A DNA stretch of 64,000 bases from a virus. Taxonomy: Duplodnaviria > Caudoviricetes. The stretch's first letter is position 1, and the number at the start of each line of letters is the position of its first letter. The DNA lies in IMG/VR virus record IMGVR_UViG_3300021387_000299, positions 96,001 through 160,000 of that record; one strand, 5' to 3'. Position numbers and translations under genes: made by a program. Positions 37,318 through 55,788 of this stretch are shown here, piece after piece. A model generated the notes under the pieces. That model made no database searches. It saw only the letters and a program-made list of their open reading frames with translations, and had not been told where the DNA came from.

Positions 37318-37805
37318 ATGCGATACACAAAAAGAAGGGAAGGTAAACACATGAAACATTACAGCATGACCAAAGCTATGACATTGTATCACATTAACAA
37401 CTACGCAACATCCTACACGATAGGTTTTGTCTACGATAGCAGAGTGTATGCTATCTCATTGACCAAAGTACCTAACAGGTGGCTGTATTGGATGTATAAC
37501 GGTAGTCAGTGGGTTGTGCGCATGCGCATTGCACAAGCCGAAAAGATTAAGCTTATTAAAAAGGCGGGCTGTATCTGTTTAGGCAATGAAGCGGAGTTAT
37601 TCAGCAAAGAATCTATCTACAACAAAGGCGATCAGTTTGAGGGCATCATCTACGAAGCTATGACAGGCAAAACATGGCACAAAGATTCAACGCCATGGTG
37701 GAATGGTGCAGACATTGAGACAGCAGGTGCTAGAGTGCAGGTAAAGTTTAACGGTGCAACTGTTGTCAAGATGAATCAGTTGATCAAATACGCATGACTC
37801 ACACG

Positions 37806-38520: not shown

Positions 38521-41500
38521 TTTTAATTTACTATAAAACAAATAGAAAAACTAAACGGGGAAAAACATAAATCAAATTTATATTTTTTAATACTCAAAAT
38601 AAAATTAAAAATTGAGTTTTAAATCCTAAAATAAAAGTCAGATCCTAAAATCTAGGCTTTCTATATGCGGCCCCGCGCGCCGGCCGCGGGCGTGGACCAG
38701 CCGGGCGGCGCGATTTTAAAAGCTTTATCGCGATCGCAAATTTTCGGATGGGAAGCTGGCTTGCCCTCTTGGCGCCAAAAGTTCCCAAAAGTGAAAATTA
38801 GGATGAAAATCCCTTTCTTTAATGCTTTAACGTATTAAAGCGTTAGGGCGCCGAGTTAGTTCAGACTAACTAACTCTCCGGCAAAATAGTTGGATTTCCA
38901 ACTATTTTTTTTTACATTAGTCTGCCGAGTTAGTTTAGGCTAACTAACCATAAATGGTTGGATCTCCAACCATTTATTTTAGTTTCATTTCCAACTATGT
39001 TCCAGGAGGCGCATTTGTGAAAAAATTAGCAAACATTTTTTTACAAATGGGTATTGACAAATAGCAGTGTATCCGTTATACTATAGTTGTAAGTTAAGAG
39101 GAGGACAACCCATGATCAACATTCGCACACTCAAAGGACTCAAAGACAACGACGGTTTAACTTTGAAAAATGGAAAAAGAATCACTTACAAAAGCGGTTA
39201 TCAGGTCGCTACAGAAGGCATTGAAACAACCGATGTAAGAGAAGCCATGAATTGGATCAAAATCAATGGCGGCAACTGCGGAGTATGGTTCGCAAATGGT
39301 ATCTACTACATTGACAAGAGTCACAGAGAATCAACCAAAAGAAAAGCTCTTGAAATTGGTAGAGCTTGCAAACAGATTTCAATTCTGAAATGGTCTGACA
39401 TGAGTCTGATCTACTGCTGAAAAGCAGTTTTTTATTTGCGGCGGGGAAGTTTGTGAATGTTTTAACTTTCACAAGCAAGTACGGGCAGTTAGTTTAGACT
39501 AACTAACTCGTGCGCTTTTCAATTTGAAATCATAGATCGTTCCATTTGTCAAGAGAAAAATTTTTTTATTTTTGGTATTGACTTGATCCCGAAATGTGCT
39601 ATAATAATAATGTAAAAAGAAAAAGGAGAAAAAATTATGTTCGTATTAATTTCAACAAATGGAAAAATTATGGGTACTTCTGAGGATGCGGAAACTGTTA
39701 AACTGGCTTATCTCATGTATAAGAAATTGTATCCTCTTAGTGATTTCAAAATTGTGAAAGCTTCCACTCTTAATAAAAAGGGAATCATTAAATTCTTAAC
39801 AGAAAATATTGAAATTAATTAAAAAAGAGGGTTGACAAACCCTTTTTTCGTGTTATAATATAAGTGTAAAAAGAAAAGAGGTAAACAAAATGATGAAAGT
39901 TAACAACCTGCCGGAATACGCTAAAACAAAAAAGTACATCGTCGCAAGACGCGTGGATGGAGAACTTTGGTTCTGGGGCGCGTGGAACGATAGAGACGCC
40001 GCTAATGAAGCCGCTTTAGAGGAAGGCGGAATCACAATCACAAATGATCTTCTGAAAAATGAATGATCATTTTTTTTATTTCATTTCATTTTCATTTGGG
40101 TTTCATTTCATTTTCGTTTGAGTTTGTGAAAATTAAAACTTTCACAAGTTTAAACGGCGCGGAGTTAGTTTAGACTAACTAACTGGGAGTTAGTCTCCGC
40201 TAACGACCCAAAATTATAGCAGAACTGGCGCCAGAAGTCAAGCGAAAAATTGATCAATTTTTTTAAAAAAATTTCATTTTCCCTATTGACAACAGAAATA
40301 AAAGTAGTTATAATAAAAGTGTAAAAAGAAAGAGGTAAAAAAAATGTTATTAAACAATTTTGACGGAATGGTTACAAAAGTAGATGATGAGCATTACATG
40401 ATCTCTGATGAATTTTTTGAAAAAAATAAAAAATGGGCTGGTGATAAAGAAGTCCTGTATGTCCATGAGTTCTTCTATGATGAAGAAATTGAAGATTGGT
40501 TCTCTGCTCAGCTTTATAGAAAAGATAAAAATTTATATTATCTTGAAGAATTGTTCTAAAAATACAAAAGTGGGGGTTGACAAAACCCCCGCTGATACTG
40601 TATAATCTAAGAGAAGATGAGGAGGGAATGACAATGACAATCTTCTATGTATACTACAATAACACTGCTGAAATGTTTGAGGATTTCTACGAAGCCGAAG
40701 CATTCGCTGAAAAAGTTGACGGGATCCTGTCAGACGCATGGGGTGAACCGATCTGCTGATCGGTTTTTTTATTTTGATAAAAAAGATGAATAAGTTGTGC
40801 ATCTTTTTGTTGCATTATTAGAATTTTGAGCGTATAATGATAGTAGAAATAAGGGAGGAACACAAGATGGAATTTGCTGAATTGAACAACCATGAGGAAA
40901 GAATGCTCAATCTCTACTTAGAGTTTTGGATCGAAGAGTCTGAAGGAATATTCGATGACAAAGACGAAAACTATAGCTTCGAAGATTGGTTGGTTGAATC
41001 TGCTGAATGGTTTGCGCAGGAATGCGGAGAACAGTATGCAGAACCCTATCGGCAGGCATTAGCTGAATGGCGGGCTTAAAGCCTGCTTTTTATTCTTAGT
41101 AACTTGTGAATGTTTTATCTTTCACAAGTTTGAGTTAGCGGCCGCTAACGGGTCGAAAAATTATAGCACAGTCCGCCGCAGATGTCAAGAGAAAAATTGA
41201 AAAAAATTTAAAAAAATAAATAAAAAATCCCGAAATTAGGTGTTGACAAATAATAACCAATAGACTATAATAATAATGTAAAGAGAGGTAAGAAAGATGA
41301 AAATCAAGGTTGAATACTCAGAGGGCGCTGGGTGCGTAGCTTCCTATTGTGAAGAATGGTTTGAAGAGTTTGAATCAATCGTGGAGATGGTAGCATTTAT
41401 GAAAAAGTTTGAAGAGCGGTTCCCGGATGCTGAAATTTCATTCCATTCAGATGGTATCCTGTCTATCTGCAGAGAATTATAAAAAAAATTAAAAAGAGGG

Positions 41501-42267: not shown

Positions 42268-42495
42268 ATGAATGAATGGATTCCCTGCAAAGAAAGAATG
42301 CCCGAACATGGCGGCGATTATCTGGTTACGTATTTAGAAGATGGTTGCTGTGATCATCTCACAGTCGGAATTGAAGATCTGTGGATTTCCGAAACTGGAA
42401 AGCATAAATCTTATTCCTGGGCAACAATTCCCAATGAAAACGTTATTGCATGGATGGAATTGCCCGAACCTTATCCATACATTGAAGAAGAATAA
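42268..42495 (+). CDS. DUF551-like phage protein
   Basis: MNEWIPCKERMPE...YLVT...VIAWMELPEPY signature. Confidence 0.75.
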   Translation: MNEWIPCKERMPEHGGDYLVTYLEDGCCDHLTVGIEDLWISETGKHKSYSWATIPNENVIAWMELPEPYPYIEEE

Positions 42496-42955
42496 AAAAA
42501 GTGTTGACAAACACTTTTTTTGTGTTATAATAATAATGTAAAGAGAGGTAAGAAAAATGAAAGAGTATTGCAATGACTGGGAATGCCCGCACAACAAAGA
42601 CGGAGAATGTGTCGCAAATGCTGAAGAGTACGCACAGTGCTTTGATGAACTCTTGGCGGCGCTCTCAAGGCTGAAAAAGTCGCAAGAAAAAAATAAATAA
42701 AGTGTTGACAACAATCCCATAATCAACTATAATAATAATGTAAAGAGGAGGAAACAAAGATGATGCATCTCTCACTGATTAAAACTTACTGCAAGGTGAT
42801 CGCCGAAAAAGGCGACTGGGCGATCTGGTATGAGGACGGTGGCTATAAGTATGCCGAAGTCCTCGACCCCGAAGAGGGTTGGATCTCCTACTCCTGCAAT
42901 TCAGAGTCTGAATGGCAGATGCTCACCGAGAGGTGAGTTTTTTTTGCTTAAAGCG

Positions 42956-43023
42956 TTTGGTCGCGCGCCCACGATCCATGCGCGCGAAACTTCAATTATA
43001 CCACGCGATCAGCAATTTGTCAA
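42956..43023. repeat. Hairpin + leftward promoter element, copy 1
   Basis: Stem 42961-42987; minus-strand TATAAT 42995-43000 and TTGACA 43018-43023. Confidence 0.75.
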
Positions 43024-43102
43024 GCGATTTTTTGCAAAAAAATTTTTTTATTTTTTTTCCTAAAACCCTTGACATTTTTCTAAGGTGTGGTATACTAATA
43101 AT

Positions 43103-43278
43103 GTAAGGAGGGGAGGGCAACCCGAACGGGATGCTCCACGTGAAGCGCGTAAGACCCTTCCGCCAAAGACCTTGCACCGCCCGGAGTCCTGTTGGCGCGG
43201 TATATAAATGTGAACCAAGGAGGCAACTCCAACCCGCGGTTGACCGCTCGCTCTTGGAAAGGGGACGGCAGGACAGAG
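43103..43278 (+). ncRNA. Candidate structured ncRNA
   Basis: Follows promoter 43069-43096; no credible CDS. GC-rich helices GGAG-GCAA-CTCC, GCGG-TTGA-CCGC, CTCTT-GGAA-AGGGG and GTCCTGTTG/CGGCAGGAC. Confidence 0.6.
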
Positions 43279-43574
43279 CAATTTCTTTGAAAAAATACTT
43301 GACTTTCCAGTCAGATGTGCTATACTATACTTGTCAATAGGAGGAACTTACAATGACAGCTAGATATTTCTTATTCCACGATGCAGAGCACGACCAGGAC
43401 TTCGTGGTCTGGGCCCATGACGAGATGGGCGCTTGGCGGTGTCTCTTTGAAGACGACCCCGTCTGGGCTGATGCCCAGGTCACCTTTATCGGTGAAGTCT
43501 CCTACGAGGAGCAGAAAGGAATGAAGCAGTATTATTAAGCTTCATCCTTTTTTAATTAACCATATAGCGCCCGG

Positions 43575-43647
43575 CGTGCCGCCGACGCGCGCTTTTTGCG
43601 GAGGCGGCACGTCCTTCCATTATAACACGCATAGGCAAAAAAGTCAA
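43575..43647. repeat. Hairpin + leftward promoter element, copy 2
   Basis: Stem 43575-43611; -10 43619-43624; -35 (TTGACT) 43642-43647. Confidence 0.75.
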
Positions 43648-43724
43648 GCGCAAATTGCAAAAAATATTCGAAAAATTTTTTTCCTAAAATGCTTGACTCA
43701 TGCCTACCCATGTGCTATACTATA

Positions 43725-43880
43725 AGAGCAGTAAGGGAAAGAGCTATAAAGCGATAGACCAGTGTGCGGACGCTCTCTAAGAATACCGGAAAAACCTTAT
43801 TGCGGAGCCTATTGGTACGGCTTTCATATATGGCTTATGGGAGAAAGTAACTCTGTGCACAAGTTTTTCTCCCATAAGGC
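43725..43880 (+). ncRNA. Candidate structured ncRNA
   Basis: Follows promoter 43693-43721. Helices GCAGTAAGG/CCTTATTGC, GAGC/GCTC and CTTATGGGAGAAA/TTTCTCCCATAAG; no ORF. Confidence 0.5.
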
Positions 43881-44585
43881 TTGACATTTATTTCCAAATC
43901 AATTATAATAAAATTAACAAAAGGAGAAAAGAAAAATGGAAAAAACAAACAACACAATCGCATTGAGAAATGGTCGCTACATCTCTCTCTCTGAAATGGA
44001 ATACAAATATATTTCCAAGACATGTGATATTATCAAATGGTTAGTTATTCTGATGGGCAATTGTGATTATAGTTGCGCATGTGATGAGAATGGAACCTAT
44101 CTCTTCTCAAAAGAAGATTTAAGGCTGTTAAATGATCTTCTTTCCAAAGTAAAAGATATTAAAAAAATTGGACTTTAAAAAGAGTTGACAAACTTTTTAA
44201 AAAATGATATAATAAAAACATAAAGAGAGGTAAGAAAAATGTTTGAACACAATAGCACAGTTCATGTAGTCTACGTTAAAAGCTCCGATTCAGAACAGTA
44301 CAGACAGAAGTACCAGGACGCCGTTGATGAAATTCAGAGACTGAATAGAATCATTGACGAGCTTAAAGAAAAGCTTCAGTCTACAGAAAAGGAACTTCAT
44401 CTCATGGAAATTGCCAACAGTTCCCTTGCAGGAATGGTTGACGATCTGACCGATGAGGTTAATGCTCTCTATGTAAAGCTTCATGACTTCAACAACTAAA
44501 AAATAGCACAAGCTATTTTTTTAATTTAGGGGTTGACATTTGTTCCAATAGTGCTATAATAATAATGTAAAGAGAGGAAAATGAA

Positions 44586-44996
44586 ATGGAAAAAATCGTT
44601 GTATACCTTGACATGGATGGAACTATTGCTAATCTGTATGGCATCAAAAATTGGCTTCCCCGTTTAAGAAATGAAGATGAAACAATCTTCTTGGAATGTG
44701 CGCCGATGGTTACTGAAAGCGAACTGCGCAAACACTTTCCCGAAAGTCTGTATGATGTGCGGATTCTGTCAATGACACCAATGAACGCAAGTGCTGAATA
44801 CTGCATGAATGTAATCAATCAGAAAAACGCATGGCTTGATAAATATTTCCCTTCAATTTCGAAAAGAATCTACCGCAAGTATGGACACAATAAGAATCTG
44901 AAAAATTCACAGTATGCAATTCTGATTGATGATTCAAAATCTATCAGAGAATCTTGGAGAGGTTTAGCTTTTGATCCCGCTATCTATTGGGATTAA
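44586..44996 (+). CDS. HAD-superfamily 5'(3')-nucleotidase-like protein
   Basis: Motif I YLDMDGTIANL and motif IV ILIDDS. Confidence 0.75.
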   Translation: MEKIVVYLDMDGTIANLYGIKNWLPRLRNEDETIFLECAPMVTESELRKHFPESLYDVRILSMTPMNASAEYCMNVINQKNAWLDKYFPSISKRIYRKYGHNKNLKNSQYAILIDDSKSIRESWRGLAFDPAIYWD

Positions 44997-45345
44997 AAGT
45001 TTTTTTTATTTGACTTTTCATTTTAAAATGATTATAATTAAAGTATAAAGAAAGGAAAAATAAAAAATGAAAGTTATTATTAGCTACACTATCTATGAAG
45101 AAAAAGAAATTAAGGTCTCCAACAAGTATGCTATCCTTCGCAATTATCCTGCCGAATTAAATGAACAGCTCAGGCGAGAATGGAGGGCTAAATCTGATGA
45201 ACTTTACACCGAGGCGCTTGAAGCCATTCCCGCAGATGCTGAATTTTGCGCAGTCAGAGACGCCAAAGATGATGAAATTTTATTTGAATTATAATTAAAA
45301 ATGCGGAGACCCCCGCATTTTTTAATTGATTTTTGCTTGAACCTT

Positions 45346-45422
45346 TTGGCGATCCGCGCGCGAGCGTCTTTCTTGCGCGCGGATCGAACTTTCATTATAC
45401 CATGCGATCCAGATTTTGTCAA
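45346..45422. repeat. Hairpin + leftward promoter element, copy 3
   Basis: Stem 45350-45386; -10 45394-45399; -35 45417-45422. Confidence 0.85.
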
Positions 45423-46628
45423 GCGAAAATTGAATAAAAAATTTATAAAAAAAATATCCCAAAATGCTTGACTCCAAGAGCAAAAAGAGTTATTATAGTA
45501 GTGTAAAGAGAGGTACGGAAAATGACAGAGTTTGAAAAGAAATTAATTGGCACTTTGGAAGAGTTCGAGGATGAAGATACTTGCGGAATGTCTTTTGAAG
45601 AATGGCTCATTGACGGAATTGAATTTTTTACAGAAGATTGCAATGAAGAAGGTACTACAGAAGAAGAAATTGAATGGAATAAAAAAGAAATTGCATGGTA
45701 TAAACAGGTTCTTGAAGCTTTAAATAATGGAACGTATGATAACTTAATTTAACCATTTATAAAAAAGAGTTGACAGACTCTTTTTTTGTGCTATAATAAT
45801 AATGTAAAGAGAGGTAAAGCAAATGAAAACATTCACAAGACAGGACATCGCCGAATTAATCGAAAGTATTGGCGGACGTATCCTTGATAACGGAGATGAT
45901 TACATTGAAGCTACTAGCAACTATAGTTGGAATACCCTTTGGTTCCAGTTTGATGAAAATGGAATTTTGATTGGAATCGGTTGCTAAAAAAATAAAAAGG
46001 GGGTTGACAATAACCCCCTAATTAGATATAATAATAATGTAAAGAGAGGAACCAAAAGATGAAACAGTACAAGAACTCAAACGGAACAGTTACAACCTAC
46101 AACATGCGCAATGAGGAAATGGCTCGCAACCTGCGCAAGCTCGGTCACAAAGTCGTTGAAGATAAAAAGAAGAAAGCAAGTAAGAACGCTTGCAGAAAGG
46201 GGTGGGAATAATGACAAGGGAAGAAAAGTCAAAATTCCATCGTGATCTTATTGACCTTTTGACCAACTGTAAAGATGATCAAACATACTATGAAAGAATG
46301 GTTTACAGCTTACAGATTATCTCAAATGAATTAACTTATTTCAAAATCCAAAAGGAAGAAAAATAAAAAAATACTTGCATAAATACTAAAAGCGTGATAT
46401 ACTAAAGATATAGAAAGAAAGAGGTAAAAAAAATGAAACTTACAGAAGAACAGAGAATTATCCTTGACGGCGAAATTACCCTTGCAATTCTTAGATTTGT
46501 TGGGGATGAAAATTTCGATAAAGCGATTGAACGCTATGACGAAATCAGCGAACTCTGTAACACTGCAATTGAAAATTTCCTTGCGACTTGCTAAAAAAAA
46601 TTGGGTAAAAGCCCATTTTTTAGTTGAT

Positions 46629-46706
46629 TTGGCGTCGCGCTCGCGGGCGCTTTTCCTGCGAGCGCGACGTATTTTCCATTATACCACGTATACCAGATTT
46701 TGTCAA
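46629..46706. repeat. Hairpin + leftward promoter element, copy 4
   Basis: Stem 46633-46669; -10 46678-46683; -35 46701-46706. Confidence 0.85.
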
Positions 46707-46799
46707 GCAAAAATTGTGACAATTTGTTGGCAAAAAATTTTCCTAAAATTGACACTTTTGGGGGTTGTAATTGTCATAAAAAAGAGTATAATAATAATT

Positions 46800-47186
46800 G
46801 TCAAGAGGAGAAAGCAACCAACCTCTCCCAAGCGCATAACTTGGTGTAAGTAAAATCGGCACTCTTCACAAAAAATACTTCAAAAACCTCTTGACAAAGT
46901 ATAACGAATCTGCTATACTATAATTGTCAAGAGGGGATGGTTGGGTCATCCCGTGGGGACAGAGCTATCTGATGAACTATAGTAAACTGACCACCATTAA
47001 AAATAAAAAATGCAAAAAAACCTCTTGACAAAGTATAGTAAATCTGCTATACTAAGAATGTAAGAAATGAGGAGAATCCCGTTCGTGGCACAAAGGAAGG
47101 TTGGAAACCGAGGGATCTTAAATGGAAAGCGACAGAACTCTGATAAAAATCCTCTATCAGACAGAGCGCAAAATCCTCAAATTTCT
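46800..47186 (+). ncRNA. Three tandem promoter-driven small structured RNAs (~46800-46868, ~46925-47000, ~47060-47186)
   Basis: Each follows its own promoter, lacks an RBS-led ORF and closes on an end-to-end helix (AAGAG/CTCTT; ATGG.TGGGTCA/TGACCACCAT; GAAATGAGGA/TCCTCAAATTTC). Confidence 0.55.
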
Positions 47187-47262
47187 TCAAAAAACTTATT
47201 GACAAATCTTAAGAAACAGTGTATACTTAAAGTGTAAAAAGAAAGGTAAAAGGTGATTACAC

Positions 47263-47637
47263 ATGGCAGAAAAGATGAACCTCACAGAACAGATTAACTC
47301 CATCGCATTCGAAGGACTGACAGAAGAGCAGTTCGCATTCCTCAAGGAAAGAGCACTGAAGTCTATCAGAAAGCCTTCCAAGACAAAGGCTCTGACCAAG
47401 ACTCAGAAGGACAACCTCGTTTTCAAGGAAAAGATCCTCGCCCTGCTCGGTGAAAAGGGTAAGCTGACCGCTACCCAGATCGGCGAAGAGCTTGGGTGGA
47501 AGGGTTCTCAGAAGGCAACCGCTCTGCTTACTCCGATGGTAAAGGCGGGTACGGTTGTCAGAACCGAAGAAGGCAAGGTCAAGTTCTTCTCCCTTGCCGA
47601 GGTTGAAGAAACCGAAGAAGAAGAAGAAGAGGAATAA
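47263..47637 (+). CDS. Winged-helix DNA-binding protein with acidic tail (paralog of 63655-63996)
   Basis: KLTATQIGEELG...QKATALLTPMVKAGTVVRTEEGKVKFFSL winged-HTH pattern; high-expression codon bias. Confidence 0.7.
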   Translation: MAEKMNLTEQINSIAFEGLTEEQFAFLKERALKSIRKPSKTKALTKTQKDNLVFKEKILALLGEKGKLTATQIGEELGWKGSQKATALLTPMVKAGTVVRTEEGKVKFFSLAEVEETEEEEEEE

Positions 47638-47666
47638 CCCCGAAGGGGCGCAAGCCCCTTCCTCAT

Positions 47667-47742
47667 ACGCCCTTAGCTTAATAGGTAAAGCACTTGACTC
47701 TGAATCAAGAGAGTGAGGGTTCGATTCCCCCAGGGCGCGCCA
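47667..47742 (+). tRNA. tRNA-Gln(CUG)
   Basis: Cloverleaf with anticodon arm CTTGA-CTCTGAA-TCAAG, T-loop TTCGATT, acceptor ACGCCCT/AGGGCGC and encoded CCA. Confidence 0.9.
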
Positions 47743-47748
47743 TTATAT

Positions 47749-47894
47749 GGGAGATTGGATTGCACAAATCTGACACGGCGGGCAGTGCCTGACCGCTTCA
47801 CCTCTGACAGTTGCCGTGAACCTAGGATAACACGGTAAACAAGTGAAAGCGCGTAGAACAGGCGCAATTGGGTTCGACTCCACCTTCTCCCCTA
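47749..47894 (+). ncRNA. tRNA-like RNA (~146 nt) with expanded central domain
   Basis: Ends GGGAGA/TCTCCC, T-arm GGTTCGACTCC, D-like hairpin, internal CACGGC/GCCGTG; starts 6 nt after tRNA-Gln. Confidence 0.6.
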
Positions 47895-47945
47895 AAAAAC
47901 CGCTCCAAGCCAATAGGTCCTCCTCCTTGCCTATTGGCTTTTTAT

Positions 47946-48021
47946 TTGGCGTTTCGTTGCCGGGCGCTTCTCTTGGCAACGAAACGTGTTTCATTATACC
48001 ACACGATCCAGCATTTGTCAA
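47946..48021. repeat. Hairpin + leftward promoter element, copy 5
   Basis: Stem 47950-47986; -10 47993-47998; -35 48016-48021. Confidence 0.85.
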
Positions 48022-48129
48022 GCAAAAATTTCGAAAAAATTTTTTTAAAATATTTTTCCCAAAAGTATTGACACATGCCCTTAATAGTAGTATCATTATT
48101 ACAGATAAAGAAAGAGAGAGGTAAATAAA

Positions 48130-48456
48130 ATGACAAAAGTTGGAACAGTTTACATGGTTACAGAAAAGGGTCTCCGCACAGTAAAGGTTGGTTTCACAAC
48201 AGACTGGGCAAAGAGAAGAGGGAATTATCACACACACAGCACTTGCGCAAGAATCATTGACATTATGGATGGTACAGACACTGATGAAAAGATGTATCAG
48301 CAGAAAATGCTTGAAATGGGATTTACAAAAGCCTTCAAGTATTCTCCAAGAAATGAATGGTTCAGACTTCCTAAGGGCATGAAGAAATCAGAACTCGAAC
48401 ATCTCGGATTCGGAATCTTTCAGAAAGATGAAGAAGAAGATGAAGAAAATGCTTGA
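48130..48456 (+). CDS. GIY-YIG-like (T5orf172-type) domain protein
   Basis: GTVYMV...VKVGFTTDWAKR...E...NEWF motif pattern; stop is TGA. Confidence 0.6.
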   Translation: MTKVGTVYMVTEKGLRTVKVGFTTDWAKRRGNYHTHSTCARIIDIMDGTDTDEKMYQQKMLEMGFTKAFKYSPRNEWFRLPKGMKKSELEHLGFGIFQKDEEEDEENA

Positions 48457-48815
48457 CAAAGCATTTTTTTTGTAGTATTATAATAATGTAAAGAGAGGTA
48501 AAACAAATGAGAATGACATTAAAACTCGCTAATCAGCTTATGGATTCACTCGTATGCCTTGCCATTAGTGCTAATGGCGGTGCAGACTATGACCACTTAC
48601 CAACAGATGAACAGATGGCGTTGGTTACGAAGTATGCCAGCAATAAACTTCTTGAAATTTGCGCAGAATGGGAAGTCCTCAAGGGAGAAGAGTGGGAGAT
48701 TGAAGAACCGGAAGAAGAGGTCGATGAAGAACCCACCCTCGATCTTGACATGGGGTTTGACCCCTACATGGGATGCTACACAGATGACTGCTGAAAAGCA
48801 GTTTTTCTATTTGAC

Positions 48816-48894
48816 TGGGCGGGCCGTTCGCAGGCGTCTTTTCCTGCGAACGGCCCGAGCTTTCCATTATACCACGCGGCAGAAAATTTGTCAA
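48816..48894. repeat. Hairpin + leftward promoter element, copy 6
   Basis: 15-bp stem 48820-48857; -10 48866-48871; -35 48889-48894. Confidence 0.85.
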
Positions 48895-48995
48895 GCATTT
48901 TTTTTGAAACTTTAGTGTCAATTTTTATCCCAAAATGGCACGCCTGGATCTGTGTGCATGGTTTGCTATTGGTAAACTTTTTGTTTAAAAAAGGC

Positions 48996-49688
48996 TCATC
49001 TCTGAGCCTTTCTCCAACAGTTATAGTATAAACCGTACTGCATGTTATACTTCTTAACATTTTTTACAATGTAGCGCAAGATTTCTGTTTCATCTTCTGC
49101 GTCACTTAATGCCGTGTGTTTTTCAACATAGTCATTCTTTCCTGTAATGAACCGATAACAAACTTCTGCATTTGTTTTAAAATTGCCTGCTTCAGAAATG
49201 TAGTGATTTTCTTCTGCAAACTGATGATACCGTTCAGTCTGCAAGATTGTTTCACATGCAAGGTTATAGATACAGAGCAGATTTTTACTCTTCTGATCAA
49301 GGACCTTTGCAAGATTCTGTTTTTCTCTATTGAACAGCTGTTCAGTGTATTTAATAGCTTTGTAGTCAAACTGTAAATTGTATGCGCTGATAGTTGTTAC
49401 TTTAAACTCTTTGATCAATTTCACAATTGTTTCTGAAATTTCTTTCCAATAAACAATCTTTTCAGTTTTCCGTGCCTGCTTGTAATCTTCTGAATACTGA
49501 TTGTAAAATTCTGATGTAGCAAGCATCCACCTTGCATCTCTGTGAAGTTCTCTAACTAAGAACCGATCTTTGTGTAAAATATTGAAATTTTTATCAATGA
49601 TTGTAAATCCAATGTCATGAACCAGCGGAGTCCCAAAATTGCCGATTGTTTCAGTATCAAGCACCATGATGTTGTTTCTTGTTCTCAT
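48996..49688 (-). CDS. DEDDh 3'-5' exonuclease (DnaQ-like)
   Basis: ExoI VLDTET, ExoII AYNLQFD, ExoIII HTALSDAEDE; its TGA stop lies inside a terminator hairpin. Confidence 0.85.
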   Translation of the reverse strand: MRTRNNIMVLDTETIGNFGTPLVHDIGFTIIDKNFNILHKDRFLVRELHRDARWMLATSEFYNQYSEDYKQARKTEKIVYWKEISETIVKLIKEFKVTTISAYNLQFDYKAIKYTEQLFNREKQNLAKVLDQKSKNLLCIYNLACETILQTERYHQFAEENHYISEAGNFKTNAEVCYRFITGKNDYVEKHTALSDAEDETEILRYIVKNVKKYNMQYGLYYNCWRKAQR

Positions 49689-50161
49689 TCTTATTACCTC
49701 TTTTCTATACCATTATTATAACAGTTCCAATTGAAAATGCAATACTTTTTTTAATATTTTTTTAAGGGGAGTTAGCTACCGCTAACGACCGAAAATTATA
49801 CCACACTCACGACCAGAAGTCAAGAGGAAAATTGCGAAAAAATAGTTGAATTTTTCTAATTTCCCGGACGACTTTGTGAAAAAATTAGCAAAATTTTTTA
49901 TTGCAATTTTAAAAAATAAATTATATAATTATTATAGAAATAAGGGAGAGATAAAAAATGAAGAAAAAATTTATTGAGCATTACTTTAATGACTGTTTAA
50001 CTCAAGAAGATTTTGACTATCTTAGAAGTCTGCCTAAAGAAGAGGCTTTAGAACTCTATCAAGAAATTCAAAGAATGGAAATTCTTCTTTACTTAAGAGG
50101 TTGACAATCTAACCAAAAAGGTGTATACTAAAGATACAAAGAAAGGTAAGAGGTGATACAC

Positions 50162-50512
50162 ATGAAAGAACCGACAAAGAAAGACCGTTATGAACAGATT
50201 CTGACTTACGTTGCAGACAATGCTGAACTGGTAGCATTTGTCAACCATGAACTTGAATTGCTTGCAAAGAAGAATGCGTCAAAATCTGCAAAGCAGACCG
50301 ACAGACAGAAAGAAAACGCTGATCTGATGACCGTTATCTATGACGCCATGGAGAATGCAAAACAGTACAGAGTAACTGATCTGATTGCGGAAATTCACGA
50401 ATTGAACGGAATGAACACACAGAGAGTTGCTCCGATTCTGAAAAAGATGTGCGACAATGTGCTGGTCACCCGTGAAGTTGTGAAGGGTGTCGCTTACTTC
50501 ACAAAGATTTAA
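50162..50512 (+). CDS. Winged-helix protein (paralog of 54937-55290)
   Basis: Shares HELELL.KKNASK..KQT.RQKENADLMTVIYDAME...GMNTQRVAPIL..M.DNVLVTREVVKG.AYFTKI with its paralog. Confidence 0.75.
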   Translation: MKEPTKKDRYEQILTYVADNAELVAFVNHELELLAKKNASKSAKQTDRQKENADLMTVIYDAMENAKQYRVTDLIAEIHELNGMNTQRVAPILKKMCDNVLVTREVVKGVAYFTKI

Positions 50513-50584
50513 TCTCACAAAAATAGCGGATAGGGGTTGACAAAACCCCTATCCCATGCTATTATTATTACAGAAAGAGAGGTA

Positions 50585-50980
50585 ATGACAATGGCAAGAC
50601 GGACAGCCGAACAGACTGAAGCGTTGATTCAGAAACACATGAGAACATTACATTGCACTAGAGAAGAAGCGATTGATGTTATCAAGTGTGATGATGAAAT
50701 TGACGGCGGAAACACTGAATTATTTGCACTGACCGCTGATCAGAAAAAGATGGTTAGAAATCTCACGAAAGCGGATAGAGATCCTACGGTGAAAAGAGAA
50801 GTCAAAAGAGATAGAAAGATTGACGATGATAAGTTGAAAATCTTCACTGTCTTGAAAGAAGCCCTTGAAGGTGCAGAAATTGAAAATCTGTCATGCAAGA
50901 ATGAAGCAGAAATCAGTTTCACCTACAACGGCGCGGAGTACACCGTAAAGCTCACAAAGCATCGTGCAAAAAAGGCTTGA
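50585..50980 (+). CDS. Hypothetical protein (paralog of 55337-55708)
   Basis: Shares HMRTL.CTREEAI..I..D.E.D.G and Y T..LT.HRAK with its paralog. Confidence 0.75.
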   Translation: MTMARRTAEQTEALIQKHMRTLHCTREEAIDVIKCDDEIDGGNTELFALTADQKKMVRNLTKADRDPTVKREVKRDRKIDDDKLKIFTVLKEALEGAEIENLSCKNEAEISFTYNGAEYTVKLTKHRAKKA

Positions 50981-51078
50981 CAATAAGCCTTTTTTGTGCA
51001 TGGGAAATGATACACCTGGAGCTGTGGACATGATAGACAACGGAACCAGGTGTGCCGAAAAATTTTTTAAAAAAGTGC

Positions 51079-51184
51079 TTGACAAACGCTTGCGGATGTG
51101 GTATAATGGCCGGTCCGCTCGCGGCGCTTCTCTTTGCGAGCGGACCGAACTTTTATTATAACATACGATGCACATTTTTGTCAA
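51079..51184. repeat. Hairpin element copy 7, flanked by convergent promoters
   Basis: Plus strand TTGACA 51079 / TATAAT 51102; stem 51111-51147; minus strand -10 51155-51160 and -35 51179-51184. Confidence 0.85.
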
Positions 51185-52705
51185 GCAAAATATCAAAAAT
51201 AAATAAAAAAAGAATTTTCCTAAAATTCTTGACAGGTAAGCGATAAAGTGTTATTATTATTACAGATAAAAGGAGAGGTAACATGGATATTTCGGAAATT
51301 GAGAACAACCCTATTGCTATTGAAGCAATAAATCATTATTTATCTGAAGTGATTGCGCATAGTTATAAATGTCAGCATTGTTTTCTTTACCACCCTAAGA
51401 GAAACTATTGCCTTTATGCCTATGAATGTATTAAAGATGATTATTGTTTTTACAAAGAAGATGAATAAAAACTCTTGACAAACCAATAGCTAAATGATAT
51501 TATTATTACAGATAAAGAGAGGTAAGAAAAATGACGTTAACTTTAAGAGAAATTGCCCTTATCGTAGTATTCGCTGTATGGTATTTAAGTGCTTTAATCA
51601 GCAATTGGGATGATAACTATACATGGCATAATGCATTCTATGCTATCGTTCAGCCAATTGTACTTCCAACAATTGTGTGTGGAATCCTTTACATCTTATT
51701 CTTCTAAAATATTTCCGAAGGGGGTTGACAACCCCCTTCCAATAGGCTATAATAGTTAATGTAAAGAGAGGTAAAAGAAAATGATGTTTGAACCGTTAAT
51801 TAGTGGTGTTAGAGTTACAGGATTTAAAATTGAGTGTCCTATCAGTAGACGACTTGTCACTTTGCAGGAATGCATGGAAAAGTTTCATCGGCAGGAAACA
51901 ATGGATTTCGTTCTTGATACCTACCGTTTCACTTTGTGTGAAGATGGTGAATGGTGCGCAATCCTTGATTACGATGATCTCTATAAAATTGCAATCCTTG
52001 AATCTTATCCATGGTATGAAGAAGAACTGATTGAATATTTCGGTAAAGACTGGCTGAAATATTACATCAGATTTGAGCACTAAAAAAAATGTGGGTCGGA
52101 GCGATAAACTCCGACCCTTAGAAAAGTTTAAAATGGAATGGAATGTAGGTTTTCCCTACGATTTTATTATAACAAAAAATTTTTTTTAAGGCAAAAAATT
52201 TTTTATTGACATTTAAAAAAAATCTGTTATAATAATAATAGAAAGAGGGATAAAAAATTATGGATTTAGGAAAAGTTTTCACTAAAAAGTATGAAGAGTT
52301 TGAAAGAGCAAGTATTCAGACACTTGTTTCTCGTCATGTTACTGCTATGCAGTTAAGGGATGGCTACGATGCAGACGCGTATTTCCTGTCAAAGCTGGCG
52401 CTTCTTGAAAAATTAAATTATGACGTTGTAGAATTTAATGCCTTGATTATTAAGGAAAAAGAGCGCAGATATAATTGGGAAATTGAATGTGCTAAACGTG
52501 ATTACGATCGCTACAAAGATGTTTCTACTGAAGACCTTGGTCGCACCATTAAACATTGGGGTTCGGTTGATGGCCCGGGAGATTATGCAGCTCTTGGTTG
52601 TATGGAACGCGAACTTGAAATGAGACTGGAACCTCTTGACATTCGTAAAGCGTTATTCTTGTCTGATCTGTAAGAAGCTGAAAAAATCAGCTTTTTGCTA
52701 TTGAT

Positions 52706-52782
52706 TTGGCGAGACCTTTGCGGGCGTCCCTTGCGCAAAGGTCTCGAACTTCCATTATACCATACGACGCAAAAAATGTCAA
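52706..52782. repeat. Hairpin + leftward promoter element, copy 8
   Basis: Stem 52710-52746; -10 52754-52759; -35 52777-52782. Confidence 0.85.
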
Positions 52783-53231
52783 GAGAAAATGTTAAAAAAA
52801 ATAAAAAAAATAATTTTCCCAAAACTATTGACAATGAATAACCAATAGTCTATAATAGTTAATGTAAAGAGAGGTAAGGAAAATGACACTTGATGAAATT
52901 GCTAAAAAAGTTATTGAAAAGGCTCGGAATGACTGGAGAGACAGCGTTATTCAGAGTAGAATTACAGTTCTGAAAGCTATGGACAATGCTATTCGTAACA
53001 TGAATGATGAAGAAGCCTTGGAGCCTTGGCTGATGGGTGGTGTTCCGGATGAAGCTTGTGAAGAAGATTATGAGGATATCGCAAGCGACCATAACAGCTA
53101 CATTGAAGTAGTTGAATTATTTGCAAAGATTACAACAAACTACGCTAAAGAAGATTTCTAAAAAATGTAGAAGAAGGGGTTGACAACCTCAGCCCCTTCT
53201 GATACAATAGTTAATGTAAGGAGAGATAAAT

Positions 53232-53627
53232 ATGAAATTTGAATGGTCTTATCATTTAGATGGTGTTGTTAAGTTTAAGCCGTATCCTTTCTATGACAAA
53301 TCGTATGATACTTGCGCTATGTTCTACAATGAAAAAGGTGAAAACATTGTATTATGTTTTGACACCTGTCAGAATTGCTGTGAAGACTTTAATCTTGAAT
53401 ACAATAAAAATTTTCACAGAAAAGAAGTAATTTCTGAAACAGGAATTACTGTAAGTTGCCATAGAGTGAACAGATTCCGCTGTGAATGCGGTGAAAAATA
53501 TATCTTCTTTGTTGATACTGGTAAAAAGATATATCAGATTGCCGTATCAAATGATCATAATGGATATTATGGTCATTACGTAGGTGTTTCCAAAAATAAA
53601 GAATTTGTTTGGGAAACTTGCATTTAG
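53232..53627 (+). CDS. Phage hypothetical protein with CCE and HNGYYG motifs
   Basis: QNCCEDF and SNDHNGYYGH; own promoter and RBS. Confidence 0.65.
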   Translation: MKFEWSYHLDGVVKFKPYPFYDKSYDTCAMFYNEKGENIVLCFDTCQNCCEDFNLEYNKNFHRKEVISETGITVSCHRVNRFRCECGEKYIFFVDTGKKIYQIAVSNDHNGYYGHYVGVSKNKEFVWETCI

Positions 53628-54170
53628 GGGGTTGACAACTCCCCCTTCTTGCACTATACTATTATTGTAAAAGAGGTAGGTGCAATGAAGAACAACATCC
53701 ATAAGAAAATGACTCATGAAGATGAGTTTAGTCGTAAACACGCTTGTTGGGTAGAAAATAACCGCAAAGCTTGGCACTTTTGGAAACATAAAACCCGCAA
53801 AGATTTCCGTAGAAAAATAAAAAAAGTAGTTGACAATTCTATGGAATAGAGTATAATAATAATGTAAAAAGAGGTAAGAAAAATGGAATTGAAAAAGGTT
53901 ATTACATTGGGATTTAATCGCAAAGAATGGAATACCCTTCTTGATGCGGCCCGCCTGCTTGAAGATCTCGGTAAAGAACTTCAGAAGCTTGGTCCTAACG
54001 AAGATGTAACTCTCAGATGCTCGGAAAATGGCGTTGAATGCGTCTTCATTGCTTCCCAGCTCTACGAATTTTCCACCACGCTTGATCTTATCGCTGAAGG
54101 TGGCACGATCACTACTTCATAACCGCTCGAACTGACCACCCTCCTCCTCCTTGGGGTGGCAGTTTTTTAT

Positions 54171-54249
54171 TTGGCGGCTCGTCTGCGGGCGCATTCTGCT
54201 GCAGACGAGCCGAGTTCTCCATTATATCACGATCCGCAAATTTTGTCAA
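54171..54249. repeat. Hairpin + leftward promoter element, copy 9
   Basis: Stem 54175-54212; -10 54221-54226; -35 54244-54249. Confidence 0.85.
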
Positions 54250-54572
54250 GAAAAAATCAAAAAATTTTTTAAAAATTATTTTTCCCAAAATGCTTGACAC
54301 CATTATTGTAATGTAGTATTATTATTACAGATAAAGAGAGGTAAACAAAATGACGATAGATGAATTAAGTATCTTCTTTGATAACATTGAACATAATATT
54401 AGTCCAAACGCTGAAATTACTTTCCTTCAGTATGATAGCAGCGACAACAAAGCAATAGTTGATTACGTTAACAGTATCGGAGAAGAACTTCGCTATACTT
54501 GCGAAATTAATACTGATTAGACGCTCCAACCGCTGATCTACTCCTCCTTGGGTCAGCGGTTTTTTTATTGAT

Positions 54573-54650
54573 CCAGCGGACCCTTTGCGCGCGTATTTTG
54601 CGCAAAGGGTTCGAATTCTTCATTATACCACACGATCAGAAAAATGTCAA
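54573..54650. repeat. Hairpin + leftward promoter element, copy 10
   Basis: Stem 54577-54613; -10 54622-54627; -35 54645-54650. Confidence 0.85.
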
Positions 54651-54741
54651 GCAAAAATCTTGGCAAAAAAGTGCCAAAAATTTCTCCCAAAATTGACACT
54701 TTTCCTATTGCAATTGTCAAAAAAATCAGTATAATTATAAG

Positions 54742-54858
54742 TGTTAAGGGGATGGGGCAAGCCCCACGAACCGAGCCAAAGGGCGAGCACGTAAACCATG
54801 GTAAATCGTGCAAAGGGGAGTGGGATACAGGGCTGAAGTCACTCGCACAAATTTGCGA
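54742..54858 (+). ncRNA. Candidate structured ncRNA
   Basis: Follows a promoter similar to the one at 46.75 kb. Hairpins TGGGGC-AA-GCCCCA, GCACG/CGTGC and GAGTG/CACTC. Confidence 0.5.
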
Positions 54859-54936
54859 AACTTTAACCAAAACCCCTTGACACATTCTCCAAAATCTGCT
54901 ATACTATCTATGTAAGAAAGGAAAGGTGGTAACACT

Positions 54937-55290
54937 ATGGCAAACAAGCCGACTAAGCGCGATTTATTCGCAAGACTCCGCGTTCTCGCTGAGAACGATC
55001 CCGAACTCGTTTCTTTCATCGACCATGAGGTTGAACTCCTCAACAAAAAGAACGCGTCTAAGACTGGCAAGCAGACTGAGCGTCAGAAGGAAAACGCTGA
55101 CCTCATGACCGTCATCTATGACGCTATGGAAACAGGAAAGCAGTATACTGTTTCCGACCTTATCGCTGAGGTTCCTGCGCTCGCAGGCATGAATACTCAG
55201 CGTGTCGCTCCGATCCTCGGTAAGATGAAGGACAACGTCCTCGTCACCCGTGAGGTTGTGAAGGGCAAGGCTTACTTCACAAAGATCTAA
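54937..55290 (+). CDS. Winged-helix protein (paralog of 50162-50512)
   Basis: Sequence similarity to 50162-50512; strong codon bias; followed by a GC hairpin. Confidence 0.75.
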   Translation: MANKPTKRDLFARLRVLAENDPELVSFIDHEVELLNKKNASKTGKQTERQKENADLMTVIYDAMETGKQYTVSDLIAEVPALAGMNTQRVAPILGKMKDNVLVTREVVKGKAYFTKI

Positions 55291-55336
55291 GCCACTGAGG
55301 GGGCGAAAGCCCCCTTCTCCCCTCACTGAAAGGTAG

Positions 55337-55708
55337 GTGATACACTTGAACGAAAAACTCATTGCTCATCATATGCGCACGTTAAAATGCACGCGTGAGG
55401 AGGCCATTCAGTTAATTGCGGATGACAAGGAAACCGACCGCGGAATCCCGCATGAATGGGATTTAACCCCCGAACAGATGAGAAACGCTCGCAAACTTGC
55501 AAATGCGCATACGCGCAAAGTGACCGCCACCACTCGCACCCGCAAGGAGAATCCCACTAAGCAGGGCATTATCTCCGCTGTTCATCAGTGTGTGAGCGGT
55601 ATCACAGGGGCGCAGGATGTGCGGATTTCCAACGCTGAGCGCGCGGTGGATTTCATGCTTGACGGTGTCAGCTACACGCTCACCCTCACGGCACATAGGG
55701 CTAAATAG
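55337..55708 (+). CDS. Hypothetical protein (paralog of 50585-50980)
   Basis: Sequence similarity to 50585-50980; probable start is the TTG of MNEKL. Confidence 0.7.
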   Translation: MIHLNEKLIAHHMRTLKCTREEAIQLIADDKETDRGIPHEWDLTPEQMRNARKLANAHTRKVTATTRTRKENPTKQGIISAVHQCVSGITGAQDVRISNAERAVDFMLDGVSYTLTLTAHRAK

Positions 55709-55788
55709 CCCTATTTTTTTATGCAAAAAGCGCAAGTTAGTCTTGACTAACCGCGCCGAGCCGCTGCCCAGCGTAGCGGCTCGAATTT

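What the first reader, a model, noticed from the sequence alone, without database searches (positions are those of the whole stretch)
42956..55783. Dispersed family of fixed-geometry, sequence-variable hairpins, each paired with a leftward sigma-A promoter
Seen: ten copies, plus a promoter-less relic at 55757-55783, typically arranged as upstream-gene terminator, TTGG, hairpin, 7-8 nt, minus-strand TATAAT/TTGACA promoter, A/T tracts, TTTTCC(C/T)AAAA, forward promoter. Copies 3-10 have a 12-bp core stem that starts CG and nearly always ends GC, but the internal sequence differs in every copy while pairing is kept (minus strand CGATCCGCGCGC, CGTCGCGCTCGC, CGTTTCGTTGCC, CGGGCCGTTCGC, CGGTCCGCTCGC, CGAGACCTTTGC, CGGCTCGTCTGC, CGAACCCTTTGC). 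The stem encloses a 13-14 nt purine-rich + CGCCC-like insert. The promoters have no ORF to drive and would start at the stem base. On the plus strand G.U/G.T pairs extend the stem to ~15 bp around a CGYnTTT-like loop, so the folded strand may be the plus strand. Inference: an undescribed multicopy system. It could be tiny decoy RNAs that titrate a host RNA-binding or defence protein, RNA polymerase traps/insulators between early modules, or hairpin recombination sites for shuffling gene cassettes.
Basis: partly seen in the sequence, partly recalled or inferred. Interest (0 to 1): 0.9.

Follow-up and report, generated by a model that had tools for sequence, protein, structure and literature searches.

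The report
Backward promoter plus hairpin boundary cassettes
In the early-gene block of an uncultured 178-kb phage, ten gaps between genes hold a GC-rich hairpin that keeps its pairing but not its sequence, with a perfect host-type promoter firing backwards into it; related phages keep this design, which most likely acts as a transcription barrier between gene cassettes, though no RNA data could be obtained.

Summary
Each has a GC-rich hairpin, then 5-8 nt, then a minus-strand TTGACA-17/18-TGnTATAAT promoter. About 0.001 such promoters are expected by chance. In seven copies an A/T tract with an UP-element-like TTTTCCYAAAA and a forward early promoter follow at a fixed 44-46 bp. Pairing covaries strongly: 9 of 15 pairs change on both sides among eight paralogues, and 14 of 15 among 59 sequences. 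No Rfam family matches. The cassette also occurs in at least 15 other viral contigs, always in one block of small genes, although the flanking genes are almost all unrelated. Four more backward promoters with other +1 palindromes lie in the same block.

My best reading (about 0.4) is a promoter-armed transcription boundary. The hairpin forms in RNA made from either direction, and the backward promoter supplies head-on polymerases. This resembles collision-driven bidirectional termination and antisense interference. Rival readings are cis-antisense small RNAs with a 5' stabiliser hairpin, a plain second terminator, trans-acting hairpin RNAs, and DNA recombination sites. In evolutionary terms the cassettes resemble the PeSL cassettes of T4-type phages. 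Nothing about transcription was measured. I rate it a new variant of a known kind.

The parts
42961..43023 (-). Copy 1. Hairpin 42961-42987 (8 bp, 11-nt loop). Backward promoter -10 at 42995-43000 and -35 at 43018-43023.
43573..43647 (-). Copy 2. Two-tier hairpin 43573-43613. Backward promoter (TTGACT, 11/12) -10 at 43619-43624 and -35 at 43642-43647.
45350..45422 (-). Copy 3. Hairpin 45350-45386 (12-bp core, 15 bp with plus-strand G.U). Backward promoter at 45394-45422. The upstream terminator 45297-45322 is bidirectional.
46633..46706 (-). Copy 4. Hairpin 46633-46669. Backward promoter at 46678-46706.
47950..48021 (-). Copy 5. Hairpin 47950-47986. Backward promoter at 47993-48021.
48820..48894 (-). 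Copy 6. Hairpin 48820-48857 (15 Watson-Crick pairs). Backward promoter at 48866-48894. No forward promoter follows.
51079..51184 (.). Copy 7, the mirrored form. Forward promoter 51079-51107 fires into hairpin 51111-51147. Backward promoter 51155-51184 fires into the same hairpin.
   Evidence: the model also hits the minus strand
52710..52782 (-). Copy 8. Hairpin 52710-52746. Backward promoter at 52754-52782.
54175..54249 (-). Copy 9. Hairpin 54175-54212. Backward promoter at 54221-54249.
54577..54650 (-). Copy 10. Hairpin 54577-54613, with a G.U in the core on the plus strand only. Backward promoter at 54622-54650.
55757..55783 (.). Promoter-less hairpin of the same type (9-bp stem, 9-nt loop, AATTTCC tail) at the right edge of the early block.
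43024..43096 (+). Example of the right half of a cassette: A/T tract, TTTTTTTTCCTAAAA (43051-65, UP-element-like) and forward promoter 43069-43096. The same layout follows copies 2, 3, 5, 7, 8 and 9, with 44-46 bp between the two -35 hexamers.
40185..40241 (-). Backward promoter (11/12, TG) with a GTTAG..CTAAC-type palindrome at its start site (second class).
41134..41188 (-). Backward promoter (12/12, TG) with the palindrome GTTAGCGGCCGCTAAC at its start site (second class).
49771..49823 (-). Backward promoter (11/12, TG) with GTTAGC-TACC-GCTAAC at its start site. This one drives the real minus-strand gene 48996-49688.
52144..52194 (-). AT-rich variant: short hairpin GTAGG-N5-CCTAC plus a backward promoter (TTGCCT-17-TATAAT, TG).

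Best explanation
Each copy is a composite regulatory cassette that marks a boundary between early-gene units of the phage.

Shown by the sequence, reading rightwards, a cassette contains:
- the terminator of the gene before it;
- a GC-rich hairpin in which only the pairing is conserved;
- a consensus sigma-A promoter pointing backwards, with extended -10 and a GG discriminator, whose start site falls on the base of the hairpin;
- a shared A/T tract with an UP-element-like TTTTCCYAAAA;
- a strong forward early promoter.

Inferred mechanism: the cassette is a promoter-armed transcription barrier.
1. The palindrome gives an RNA hairpin to polymerases coming from either side, and the hairpin pauses or traps them.
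2. The backward promoter keeps a polymerase parked at, or leaving from, the right edge of the hairpin. Polymerases that read through the upstream terminator therefore meet it head-on at a fixed place and are stopped.
3. The backward polymerases are in turn stopped at the upstream terminator or hairpin by the heavy rightward traffic.
4. The downstream unit then runs only from its own promoter. In relatives that promoter carries an operator-like inverted repeat.
5. The short backward RNA, capped by a 5'-terminal hairpin, is a by-product or adds cis-antisense interference.
6. The mirrored copies (promoter, hairpin, promoter) are self-contained two-sided barriers.

Because only the structure is needed, the stems are free to drift through compensatory changes.
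For: - Ten perfect or near-perfect backward promoters against about 0.001 expected. All lie inside one 12-kb block of plus-strand small genes.
- The stem end to -10 distance is 5-8 nt in all 37 hairpins scored in several phages. The distance to the upstream terminator varies. The hairpin is therefore tied to the promoter's start site.
- Pairing is selected and sequence is not. The sister copies 8 and 10 differ by double compensatory changes.
- Seven of ten backward promoters have no SD-led ORF within 400 nt.
- The hairpin carries no U-tract on the minus strand (0 of 37) and a good T-tail on the plus strand in only 11 of 37. In most copies it is thus not a self-sufficient terminator in either direction.
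- Mirrored two-promoter copies recur in several phages.
- The spacing to the forward promoter is fixed at 44-46 bp.
- From title, abstract and my own recall only (these papers were not read here): antisense promoters placed at gene 3' ends change expression (PMC4731013, listed); 'sitting duck', occlusion and collision interference at convergent promoters (PMC6593788 and PMC5001618, listed).
Against: - There are no RNA data.
- A palindrome is not strictly needed for a roadblock.
- The long stems fold better as plus-strand RNA, and some relatives have clean T-tails or promoter-less copies with T7 tails. A plain-terminator reading therefore explains part of the family.
- The backward promoter spacer is better conserved than the stems. 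This hints at a regulator the model does not include.
- Only some early cassettes carry the element. Many others use compact terminator/-35 composites without it.
Confidence: 0.4

Rival explanations
1. The backward promoters make functional cis-antisense RNAs, in the manner of lambda OOP or P22 sar. The hairpin is a 5'-terminal stabiliser against 5'-end-dependent decay (RNase J1 type). The RNA overlaps the terminator and 3' end of the upstream early mRNA, and it lowers that gene's expression through duplex formation with RNase III cleavage, or through interference.
For: - The start site falls on the hairpin base, with at most 2-3 unpaired nt. This is the geometry known to protect Firmicute RNAs (my own knowledge of B. 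subtilis 5' stabilisers).
- Six of nine upstream terminators are not bidirectional, so the backward RNA could enter the upstream gene.
- For copies 3 and 4 a two-hairpin RNA of about 85 nt ending at a bidirectional terminator is predicted.
- An earlier scan note describes a similar backward promoter-hairpin pair in a marine phage.
Against: - The upstream genes are unrelated to one another and are not conserved in relatives, so there is no common target.
- The inner pairs favour the plus strand, not the antisense RNA.
- The mirrored copies have no upstream gene to act on.
- Nothing beyond the hairpin is conserved on the backward RNA except CCAAA.
Confidence: 0.2
2. The hairpin is simply a second, strong intrinsic terminator for rightward transcription (a tandem terminator). 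Its U-tract happens to overlap the discriminator and -10 of a backward promoter. That promoter's own role is separate, for example recruiting polymerase to, or supercoil-activating, the neighbouring forward promoter.
For: - The plus strand folds 3 kcal/mol better in 14 of 18 long hairpins (p = 0.004).
- There are G.U pairs on the plus strand only.
- The consensus scan calls four copies terminator-like on the plus strand.
- Several relatives have TTTTT(CC)ATTATA tails.
- A promoter-less copy has a T7 tail (G004a 10910), and a copy with a decayed promoter exists (G006a 6557).
- The back-to-back spacing to the forward promoter is fixed.
Against: - Only 11 of 37 tails have at least 5 T in 8 nt, and most begin with AA.
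- Every hairpin already follows a canonical terminator or a promoter.
- The 5-8 nt coupling to the -10 and the mirrored promoter-hairpin-promoter copies are not expected for a mere terminator.
- The short-stem majority shows no strand bias.
Confidence: 0.15
3. The product is the hairpin RNA itself: tiny, abundant, 5'-triphosphate stem-loops. In mirrored copies both strands would be made, giving a duplex of about 40 bp. These RNAs would act in trans, for example as decoys for a host RNA-binding or defence protein.
For: - The promoters are very strong, the structure is conserved and there is no coding potential.
- Loop composition is strand-biased, 66% pyrimidine on the plus strand.
- The closing CG and an inner CGC are conserved.
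- In mirrored copies with T-tails, a discrete plus-strand RNA of about 40 nt is predicted (G004a 13591).
Against: - The backward RNA has no terminator after the hairpin in any copy.
- Loop sequence and length, and stem length, vary widely across relatives (4-13 nt and 8-17 bp). This argues against one protein partner.
- No partner gene is linked to the element.
Confidence: 0.1
4. The hairpins act as DNA (a cruciform or single-strand hairpin), serving as sites for recombination or nicking that shuffle gene cassettes.
For: - Between related phages, the cassettes are the only DNA conserved in this block (70-85% over 50-110 bp), while nearly all flanking ORFs are unrelated.
- This is the pattern described for PeSL cassettes of T4-type phages (PMC2839356).
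Against: - PeSL exchange runs by ordinary homologous recombination in the conserved promoter and A/T parts, not at the hairpin.
- Here the hairpin is the least conserved part, so it is the worst substrate for homology.
- Loops of 7-14 nt disfavour cruciform extrusion (my own knowledge).
- No recombinase is linked, and close relatives needed to map breakpoints were not available.
- Strand-biased G.U pairs and loops point to RNA.
Confidence: 0.05

Closest known systems
PeSL (promoter-early stem-loop) cassettes of T4-type phages (PMC2839356, PMC4122927)
   Same: Both are small repeated intergenic cassettes in a block of small, poorly conserved early genes. Both have a stem-loop, an A/T-rich tract and a strong host-type promoter. 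Both are conserved between phages whose flanking genes differ.
   Different: PeSLs have one promoter, co-oriented with the genes, and a fairly conserved GGGG..CCCC stem. Here a second, perfect promoter points backwards into the stem-loop, and the stem sequence is free. The hosts are of Gram-positive type. Shuffling and mini-circles were not tested here.
Collision-driven bidirectional terminators between convergent genes of E. coli (Wang, Watters, Ju, Liu; bioRxiv 10.1101/2022.10.23.513370)
   Same: In both, an RNA-hairpin element is transcribed from both sides and needs no good U-tract. Converging polymerases are the agents that stop read-through at a fixed place.
   Different: In E. coli the opposing traffic comes from a real convergent gene kilobases away. 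Here a dedicated, gene-less promoter sits 5-8 nt from the hairpin, in 10 or more copies per genome. Collision is inferred here, not observed.
Antisense promoters and transcriptional interference at convergent promoters (phage 186 pR/pL 'sitting duck'; PMC6593788, PMC5001618; synthetic antisense promoters, PMC4731013)
   Same: A promoter faces incoming transcription at short range. The effect comes from polymerase occupancy and collisions rather than from a gene product.
   Different: The known cases are single regulatory switches. This one is a multicopy cassette with a structured element between the opposing polymerases. These papers were used from title, abstract and recall only.
Lambda OOP RNA and P22 sar RNA (short phage antisense RNAs; from my own knowledge)
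   Same: Both are short backward transcripts from a strong promoter that overlap the 3' end of, or a convergent promoter for, an early gene.
   Different: Those are single-copy, sequence-specific RNAs with defined terminators and targets. Here ten copies face unrelated genes, and most lack a backward terminator.
Rho-independent terminators
   Same: A GC-rich stem lies directly after a gene, with a T-rich tail on the plus strand in about 30% of family members.
   Different: Most tails begin with AA and have fewer than 5 T in 8 nt. A canonical terminator already precedes the hairpin. There is fixed coupling to a backward -10.

Membership tests
PeSL cassettes | Repeated intergenic motif with a strong sigma-70-type early promoter, an A/T-rich tract upstream of the -35, and a stem-loop | tested here: met
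   Searches show the stem-loop, A/T tract and forward consensus promoter in 9 of 10 copies.
PeSL cassettes | All parts co-oriented with the genes, with the stem-loop acting as terminator for upstream transcription | tested here: not met
   An extra perfect promoter points backwards. Only 11 of 37 tails are terminator-like.
PeSL cassettes | Mediates insertion, deletion or replacement of flanked ORFs between close relatives, and forms mini-circles | not testable with these tools
   No close relative was reachable. The distant relatives share the cassettes and only a few of the genes.
Collision-type bidirectional terminator | Hairpin-encoding element transcribed from both directions | tested here: inconclusive
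   Promoters and genes face the hairpin from both sides. Transcription itself was not observed.
Collision-type bidirectional terminator | Read-through is blocked only when opposing polymerases are present | not testable with these tools
   This needs in vitro or reporter assays.
Rho-independent terminator | GC-rich stem followed at once by a U-tract | tested here: inconclusive
   Plus strand: mean 3.6 T in 8 nt, and at least 5 T in 11 of 37. Minus strand: 0 of 37.
Any Rfam family | Score at or above the family's gathering threshold | tested here: not met
   Only tRNA-Gln passes. With the E-value threshold, only weak hits far below the gathering scores appear.
Protein operator (dimer site on duplex DNA) | Conserved half-site sequence at fixed spacing | tested here: not met
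   Stem sequence, stem length (8-17 bp) and loop length (4-14 nt) all vary while pairing covaries. The GTTAGC..GCTAAC class does look like an operator.
Integron attC / IS200-type DNA hairpins | Conserved core sites (R'', R') or a linked integrase or transposase | tested here: not met
   No such core is present, and no recombinase is nearby. This judgement rests partly on my recall of attC features.
N4-type hairpin promoters | 5-7 bp stem with a 3-nt loop centred upstream of the start, read by a virion RNA polymerase | tested here: not met
   Stems are 8-17 bp with loops of 4-14 nt, and they lie downstream of a sigma-A promoter. The N4 features are recalled, not looked up.

The most novel reading that the evidence does not exclude
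This is a dedicated genetic insulator that has not been described: a gene-less, perfect promoter placed 5-8 nt from a structure-only hairpin, sometimes with one promoter on each side. Its sole job would be to stage polymerase collisions or parking at a fixed point. A clade of large uncultured phages would then use it to wall off individually regulated early units. The same evidence also allows a family of tiny hairpin RNAs with a trans function.
Probability: 0.3. Interest if true: 0.75.

Novelty: new variant of a known kind. Interest (0 to 1): 0.58.

Why it matters
If the barrier reading holds, these phages have evolved a compact, portable part of about 80 bp that ends transcription by staged polymerase collision rather than by a classical terminator. 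That would make the recently proposed collision mechanism directly testable on a natural, minimal element, and it would offer a ready-made insulator for Gram-positive synthetic biology. The cassettes are also the only conserved DNA in a fast-changing block of host-takeover-type genes, so they are natural markers for finding and comparing such blocks in uncultured phages. If the reading is wrong, the family is still a clean, strongly covarying structured element whose role is unknown.

Tried and rejected
- Rfam at gathering and E-value thresholds: no family matched.
- BLAST against cultured phage records: the near mode found nothing. The distant mode found only generic forward promoter and A/T-tract similarity in Enterococcus and Lactococcus phages.
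- One viral-contig scan was wasted on a wrong spacer length. The corrected pattern worked.
- A scan of 185,579 bacterial and archaeal genomes with the strict pattern gave 64 hits. None is a real element by the covariance model or by folding.
- Stems as 'addresses': no arm 12-mer recurs elsewhere in the 178-kb genome with up to 1 mismatch.
- Strand test on all 54 hairpins: not significant (p = 0.21). It is significant only in the long-stem subset, which was chosen after the fact.
- Wobble counts from the model-fitted alignment (33 G.T against 6 A.C) are biased by the model. The unbiased count is only 6 against 2, and one pair of these is the same hairpin seen from both strands.
- Genome-end geometry: the 'direct terminal repeat' of relative G003 is only 107 bp, so it gives no information on which DNA end enters first. 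The idea that the promoters pull DNA into the cell was dropped.
- The idea that backward transcripts are anti-terminated into the leftward structural genes was considered and dropped. That block has its own consensus promoter at 35631-35659.
- Pfam on ten neighbouring proteins: nothing points to a hairpin-binding partner.
- Rejected on features: dimer operator, cruciform, attC-like and N4-like readings (see the membership test).

Full report
Setting. The window is bases 96,001-160,000 of a 177,819-bp IMG/VR virus record that CheckV rates 95% complete. Read with TGA as Trp, window 1-35,600 holds long minus-strand structural genes. Window 36,144-55,708 holds about 45 small plus-strand genes. Consensus sigma-A promoters scoring 11/12 or better are concentrated in this second block: about 38 point forwards and 13 point backwards. 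Ribosome-binding sites are of the strong Gram-positive type, AAAGAGAGGTAA.

Check of the observation. All ten copies are real. Each has a GC-rich hairpin, a 5-8 nt gap, then ATTATA-N17/18-TGTCAA on the plus strand. Read on the minus strand this is a TTGACA/TGnTATAAT promoter. Nine copies score 12/12 and one scores 11/12. About 0.001 such sites are expected by chance in the block.
- In the whole genome, GC-rich hairpins with stems of 10 bp or more and this flank occur only here.
- A covariance model built from copies 3-10 finds all ten copies, and nothing else outside 138,957-150,652 of the record.
- In copies 3-10, 97.5% of cells pair and 9 of 15 pairs change on both sides. Slid controls fall to 26-51% pairing, and 0 of 500 shuffles reach the observed score.
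- Copies 8 and 10 are sister copies. They differ at three adjacent stem positions: one change gives a G.U pair and two are double compensatory changes.
- The right half is equally regular. Seven copies have 44-46 bp between the backward and forward -35 hexamers, and T-run-CCY-AAAA lies just upstream of the forward -35. From my recollection of the UP-element consensus (Estrem et al. 1998: AAAWWTWTTTTnnAAAA ending near -38), this tract is UP-like. That rests on recall, not on a test.

- Copies 1 and 2 have other stems.
- Copy 6 lacks the forward promoter.
- Copies 4 and 10 use a different forward promoter.
- Copy 7 has, in place of an upstream terminator, a mirrored promoter of the same family firing into the hairpin from the left.
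- Four more backward promoters in the block carry other palindromes at +1, and one of them drives a real gene.

Relatives. A pattern scan of IMG/VR and follow-up searches found the same cassette in three large records: G003 (130 kb), G004 (178 kb) and G006 (171 kb). It also occurs in more than a dozen further contigs. In each large record the copies sit in one block of small genes.
- Across 59 distinct sequences aligned to the model, 94.8% of cells pair and 14 of 15 pairs change on both sides. This alignment was fitted to the structure, so it leans towards it.
- Stems range from 8 to 17 bp and loops from 4 to 14 nt.
- The closing C-G and G-C pairs and an inner C-G, G-C, C-G run are the commonest, but none is invariant.
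- The stem end to -10 distance is 5-8 nt in all 37 hairpins scored by a method that treats both strands alike.
- Between G000 and these relatives, the only DNA similarity in the block lies in intergenic cassettes (70-85% over 50-110 bp). Very few of the small proteins have homologues.
- In relatives an inverted repeat, TGCACAAA-N12-14-TTTGTGCA, brackets the TCCCnAAA motif between the two promoters. This looks like an operator.
- Nothing similar was found in cultured-phage records.
- A strict-pattern scan of one genome per prokaryote species found no real copy.

Which strand folds?
- In this phage the plus strand is more stable in 7 of 10 copies.
- In the eight-copy alignment of copies 3-10, the three inner pairs are largely G.U on the plus strand, which would be A.C on the minus strand.
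- Over all 54 family members the bias is not significant (p = 0.21).
- In the 18 long hairpins the plus strand wins 14 to 4, by a mean of 3 kcal/mol (p = 0.004). That subset was chosen after seeing the data.
- Loops are 66% pyrimidine on the plus strand, against a background of 45%.
So the rightward RNA copy of the hairpin is under some selection, at least in the long form.

Is it a terminator?
- On the minus strand no copy has a U-tract.
- On the plus strand only 11 of 37 have at least 5 T in the 8 nt after the stem, and most tails start with AA.
- Some relatives do have clean TTTTT tails. One promoter-less hairpin has a T7 tail and another copy has a decayed promoter.
- Every hairpin already follows a canonical terminator or a promoter.
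A plain second terminator therefore explains part of the family, but not the fixed coupling to a backward -10 and not the mirrored copies.

Most likely mechanism. What is shown is the anatomy:
- a gene-less promoter of maximal strength, with consensus -35, 17-bp spacer, TG extension, consensus -10 and GG discriminator;
- a GC-rich initial transcribed sequence, which from general knowledge of promoter escape should favour long-lived, slowly escaping complexes;
- a start site on the base of a hairpin that both strands can form;
- a position right after a terminator and right before an UP-boosted forward promoter.
The inference is that this is a transcription barrier worked by opposing polymerases. 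In E. coli, head-on collisions at a hairpin element that does not terminate by itself prevent read-through, and the hairpin fixes where collisions occur (bioRxiv 10.1101/2022.10.23.513370). From their titles and abstracts and my own recall (these papers were not opened), interference by parked or converging polymerases is established for convergent promoters (PMC6593788 and PMC5001618), and antisense promoters at gene ends change expression (PMC4731013). The cassette would be a compact, self-armed version of this, and the mirrored copies would be two-sided versions. I give this about 0.4. The rivals and their weights are listed in their own section. The backward RNA may add cis-antisense effects, and the two readings are not exclusive.

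Comparison with known systems. The nearest described family is the PeSL cassette of T4-type phages: a stem-loop, an A/T tract and a strong early promoter between ORFans, conserved as linkers and driving modular shuffling (PMC2839356; PMC4122927). The present cassettes meet the composition criterion. They fail the orientation criterion because of the extra backward promoter, and they have free stem sequences. Shuffling could not be tested. They are not a member of any Rfam family. On their features they are not operators, attC sites or N4 hairpin promoters.

Novelty and verdict. I found no description of a multicopy backward-promoter/hairpin cassette in the library searches made. Those searches were few and cannot show absence. 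Earlier notes of this scan record a two-copy backward promoter-hairpin cassette in a marine phage and PeSL-like repeats in a jumbo phage, so the general theme has been seen before on other DNA. I class this as a new variant of a known kind (composite promoter-terminator cassettes, convergent-transcription control).

Noticed in passing
window 45761-45797, 45998-46032, 50528-50565, 51717-51753, 53172-53208, 53625-53660, 40572-40606, 41496-41530: A second, compact kind of intergenic cassette. The terminator hairpin of one gene carries the next promoter's -35 (TTGACA) in its loop, and its T-tract serves as the promoter spacer before TGnTATAAT. This is very PeSL-like.
   Followed up: partly
window 47907-47940, about 54133-54166, 54528-54561: Three terminators, upstream of copies 5, 9 and 10, have 11-12-nt loops reading (U)CCUCCUCCUUG (anti-Shine-Dalgarno-like). 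Each is preceded by CGCTC(G/C)AA. Read leftwards they give GGAGG followed by TTG/GTG starts, with 25-56-aa antisense ORFs.
   Followed up: partly
window 43097-43290, 43722-43880, 46793-46880, 46920-47010, 47054-47190, 54736-54870: GC-rich stretches driven by consensus promoters, with no ORF. Several start (T)GTCAAGAGGGGATGG, and the same opening follows cassettes in relatives (L020, L025, G006). This is a candidate family of small RNAs or leaders. There is no Rfam match.
   Followed up: no
window 40185-40209, 41134-41149, 49771-49786, also 36745-36765: Sequence-conserved palindrome GTTAGC-N4-GCTAAC (and GTTAG..CTAAC variants) at the start site of three backward promoters and elsewhere. It looks like an operator for a phage repressor.
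   Followed up: partly
window 35631-35659: The minus-strand structural block is headed by a consensus extended -10 promoter (TTGACA-17-TGgTATAAT). A perfect 12-bp palindrome, TTACAATTGTAA, lies just downstream of its -10 (35625-35636).
   Followed up: no
window 55790-56230: CCGATCGG occurs about five times in 450 bp at the right edge of the early block, among A/T-rich promoter-like sequences on both strands. It may be a regulatory or replication site.
   Followed up: no
window 50153-50980, 54937-55708, 47263-47637: A pair of small genes (about 119 aa plus 123-147 aa) is duplicated in this phage and present in 2-3 copies in G004 and G006. One copy has a weak MarR-type winged-helix hit. They are candidate regulators.
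   Followed up: partly
relatives: L169 (G003), L168 (G006), L110, L135, L022: An inverted repeat, TGCACAAA-N12-14-TTTGTGCA, brackets the TCCCnAAA motif between the backward and forward promoters of most cassettes. It is absent in this form from the window's own phage.
   Followed up: partly
window 37267-37317: A perfect 20-bp inverted repeat (TGTTTCACGTGAAACAATCA with an 11-nt centre) lies at the start of a small gene.
   Followed up: no
window 47743-47895: A non-coding stretch between tRNA-Gln and copy 5 ends in a T-arm-like GGGTTCGACTCC. ARAGORN does not call it, and Rfam gives only a weak chance-level hit.
   Followed up: no
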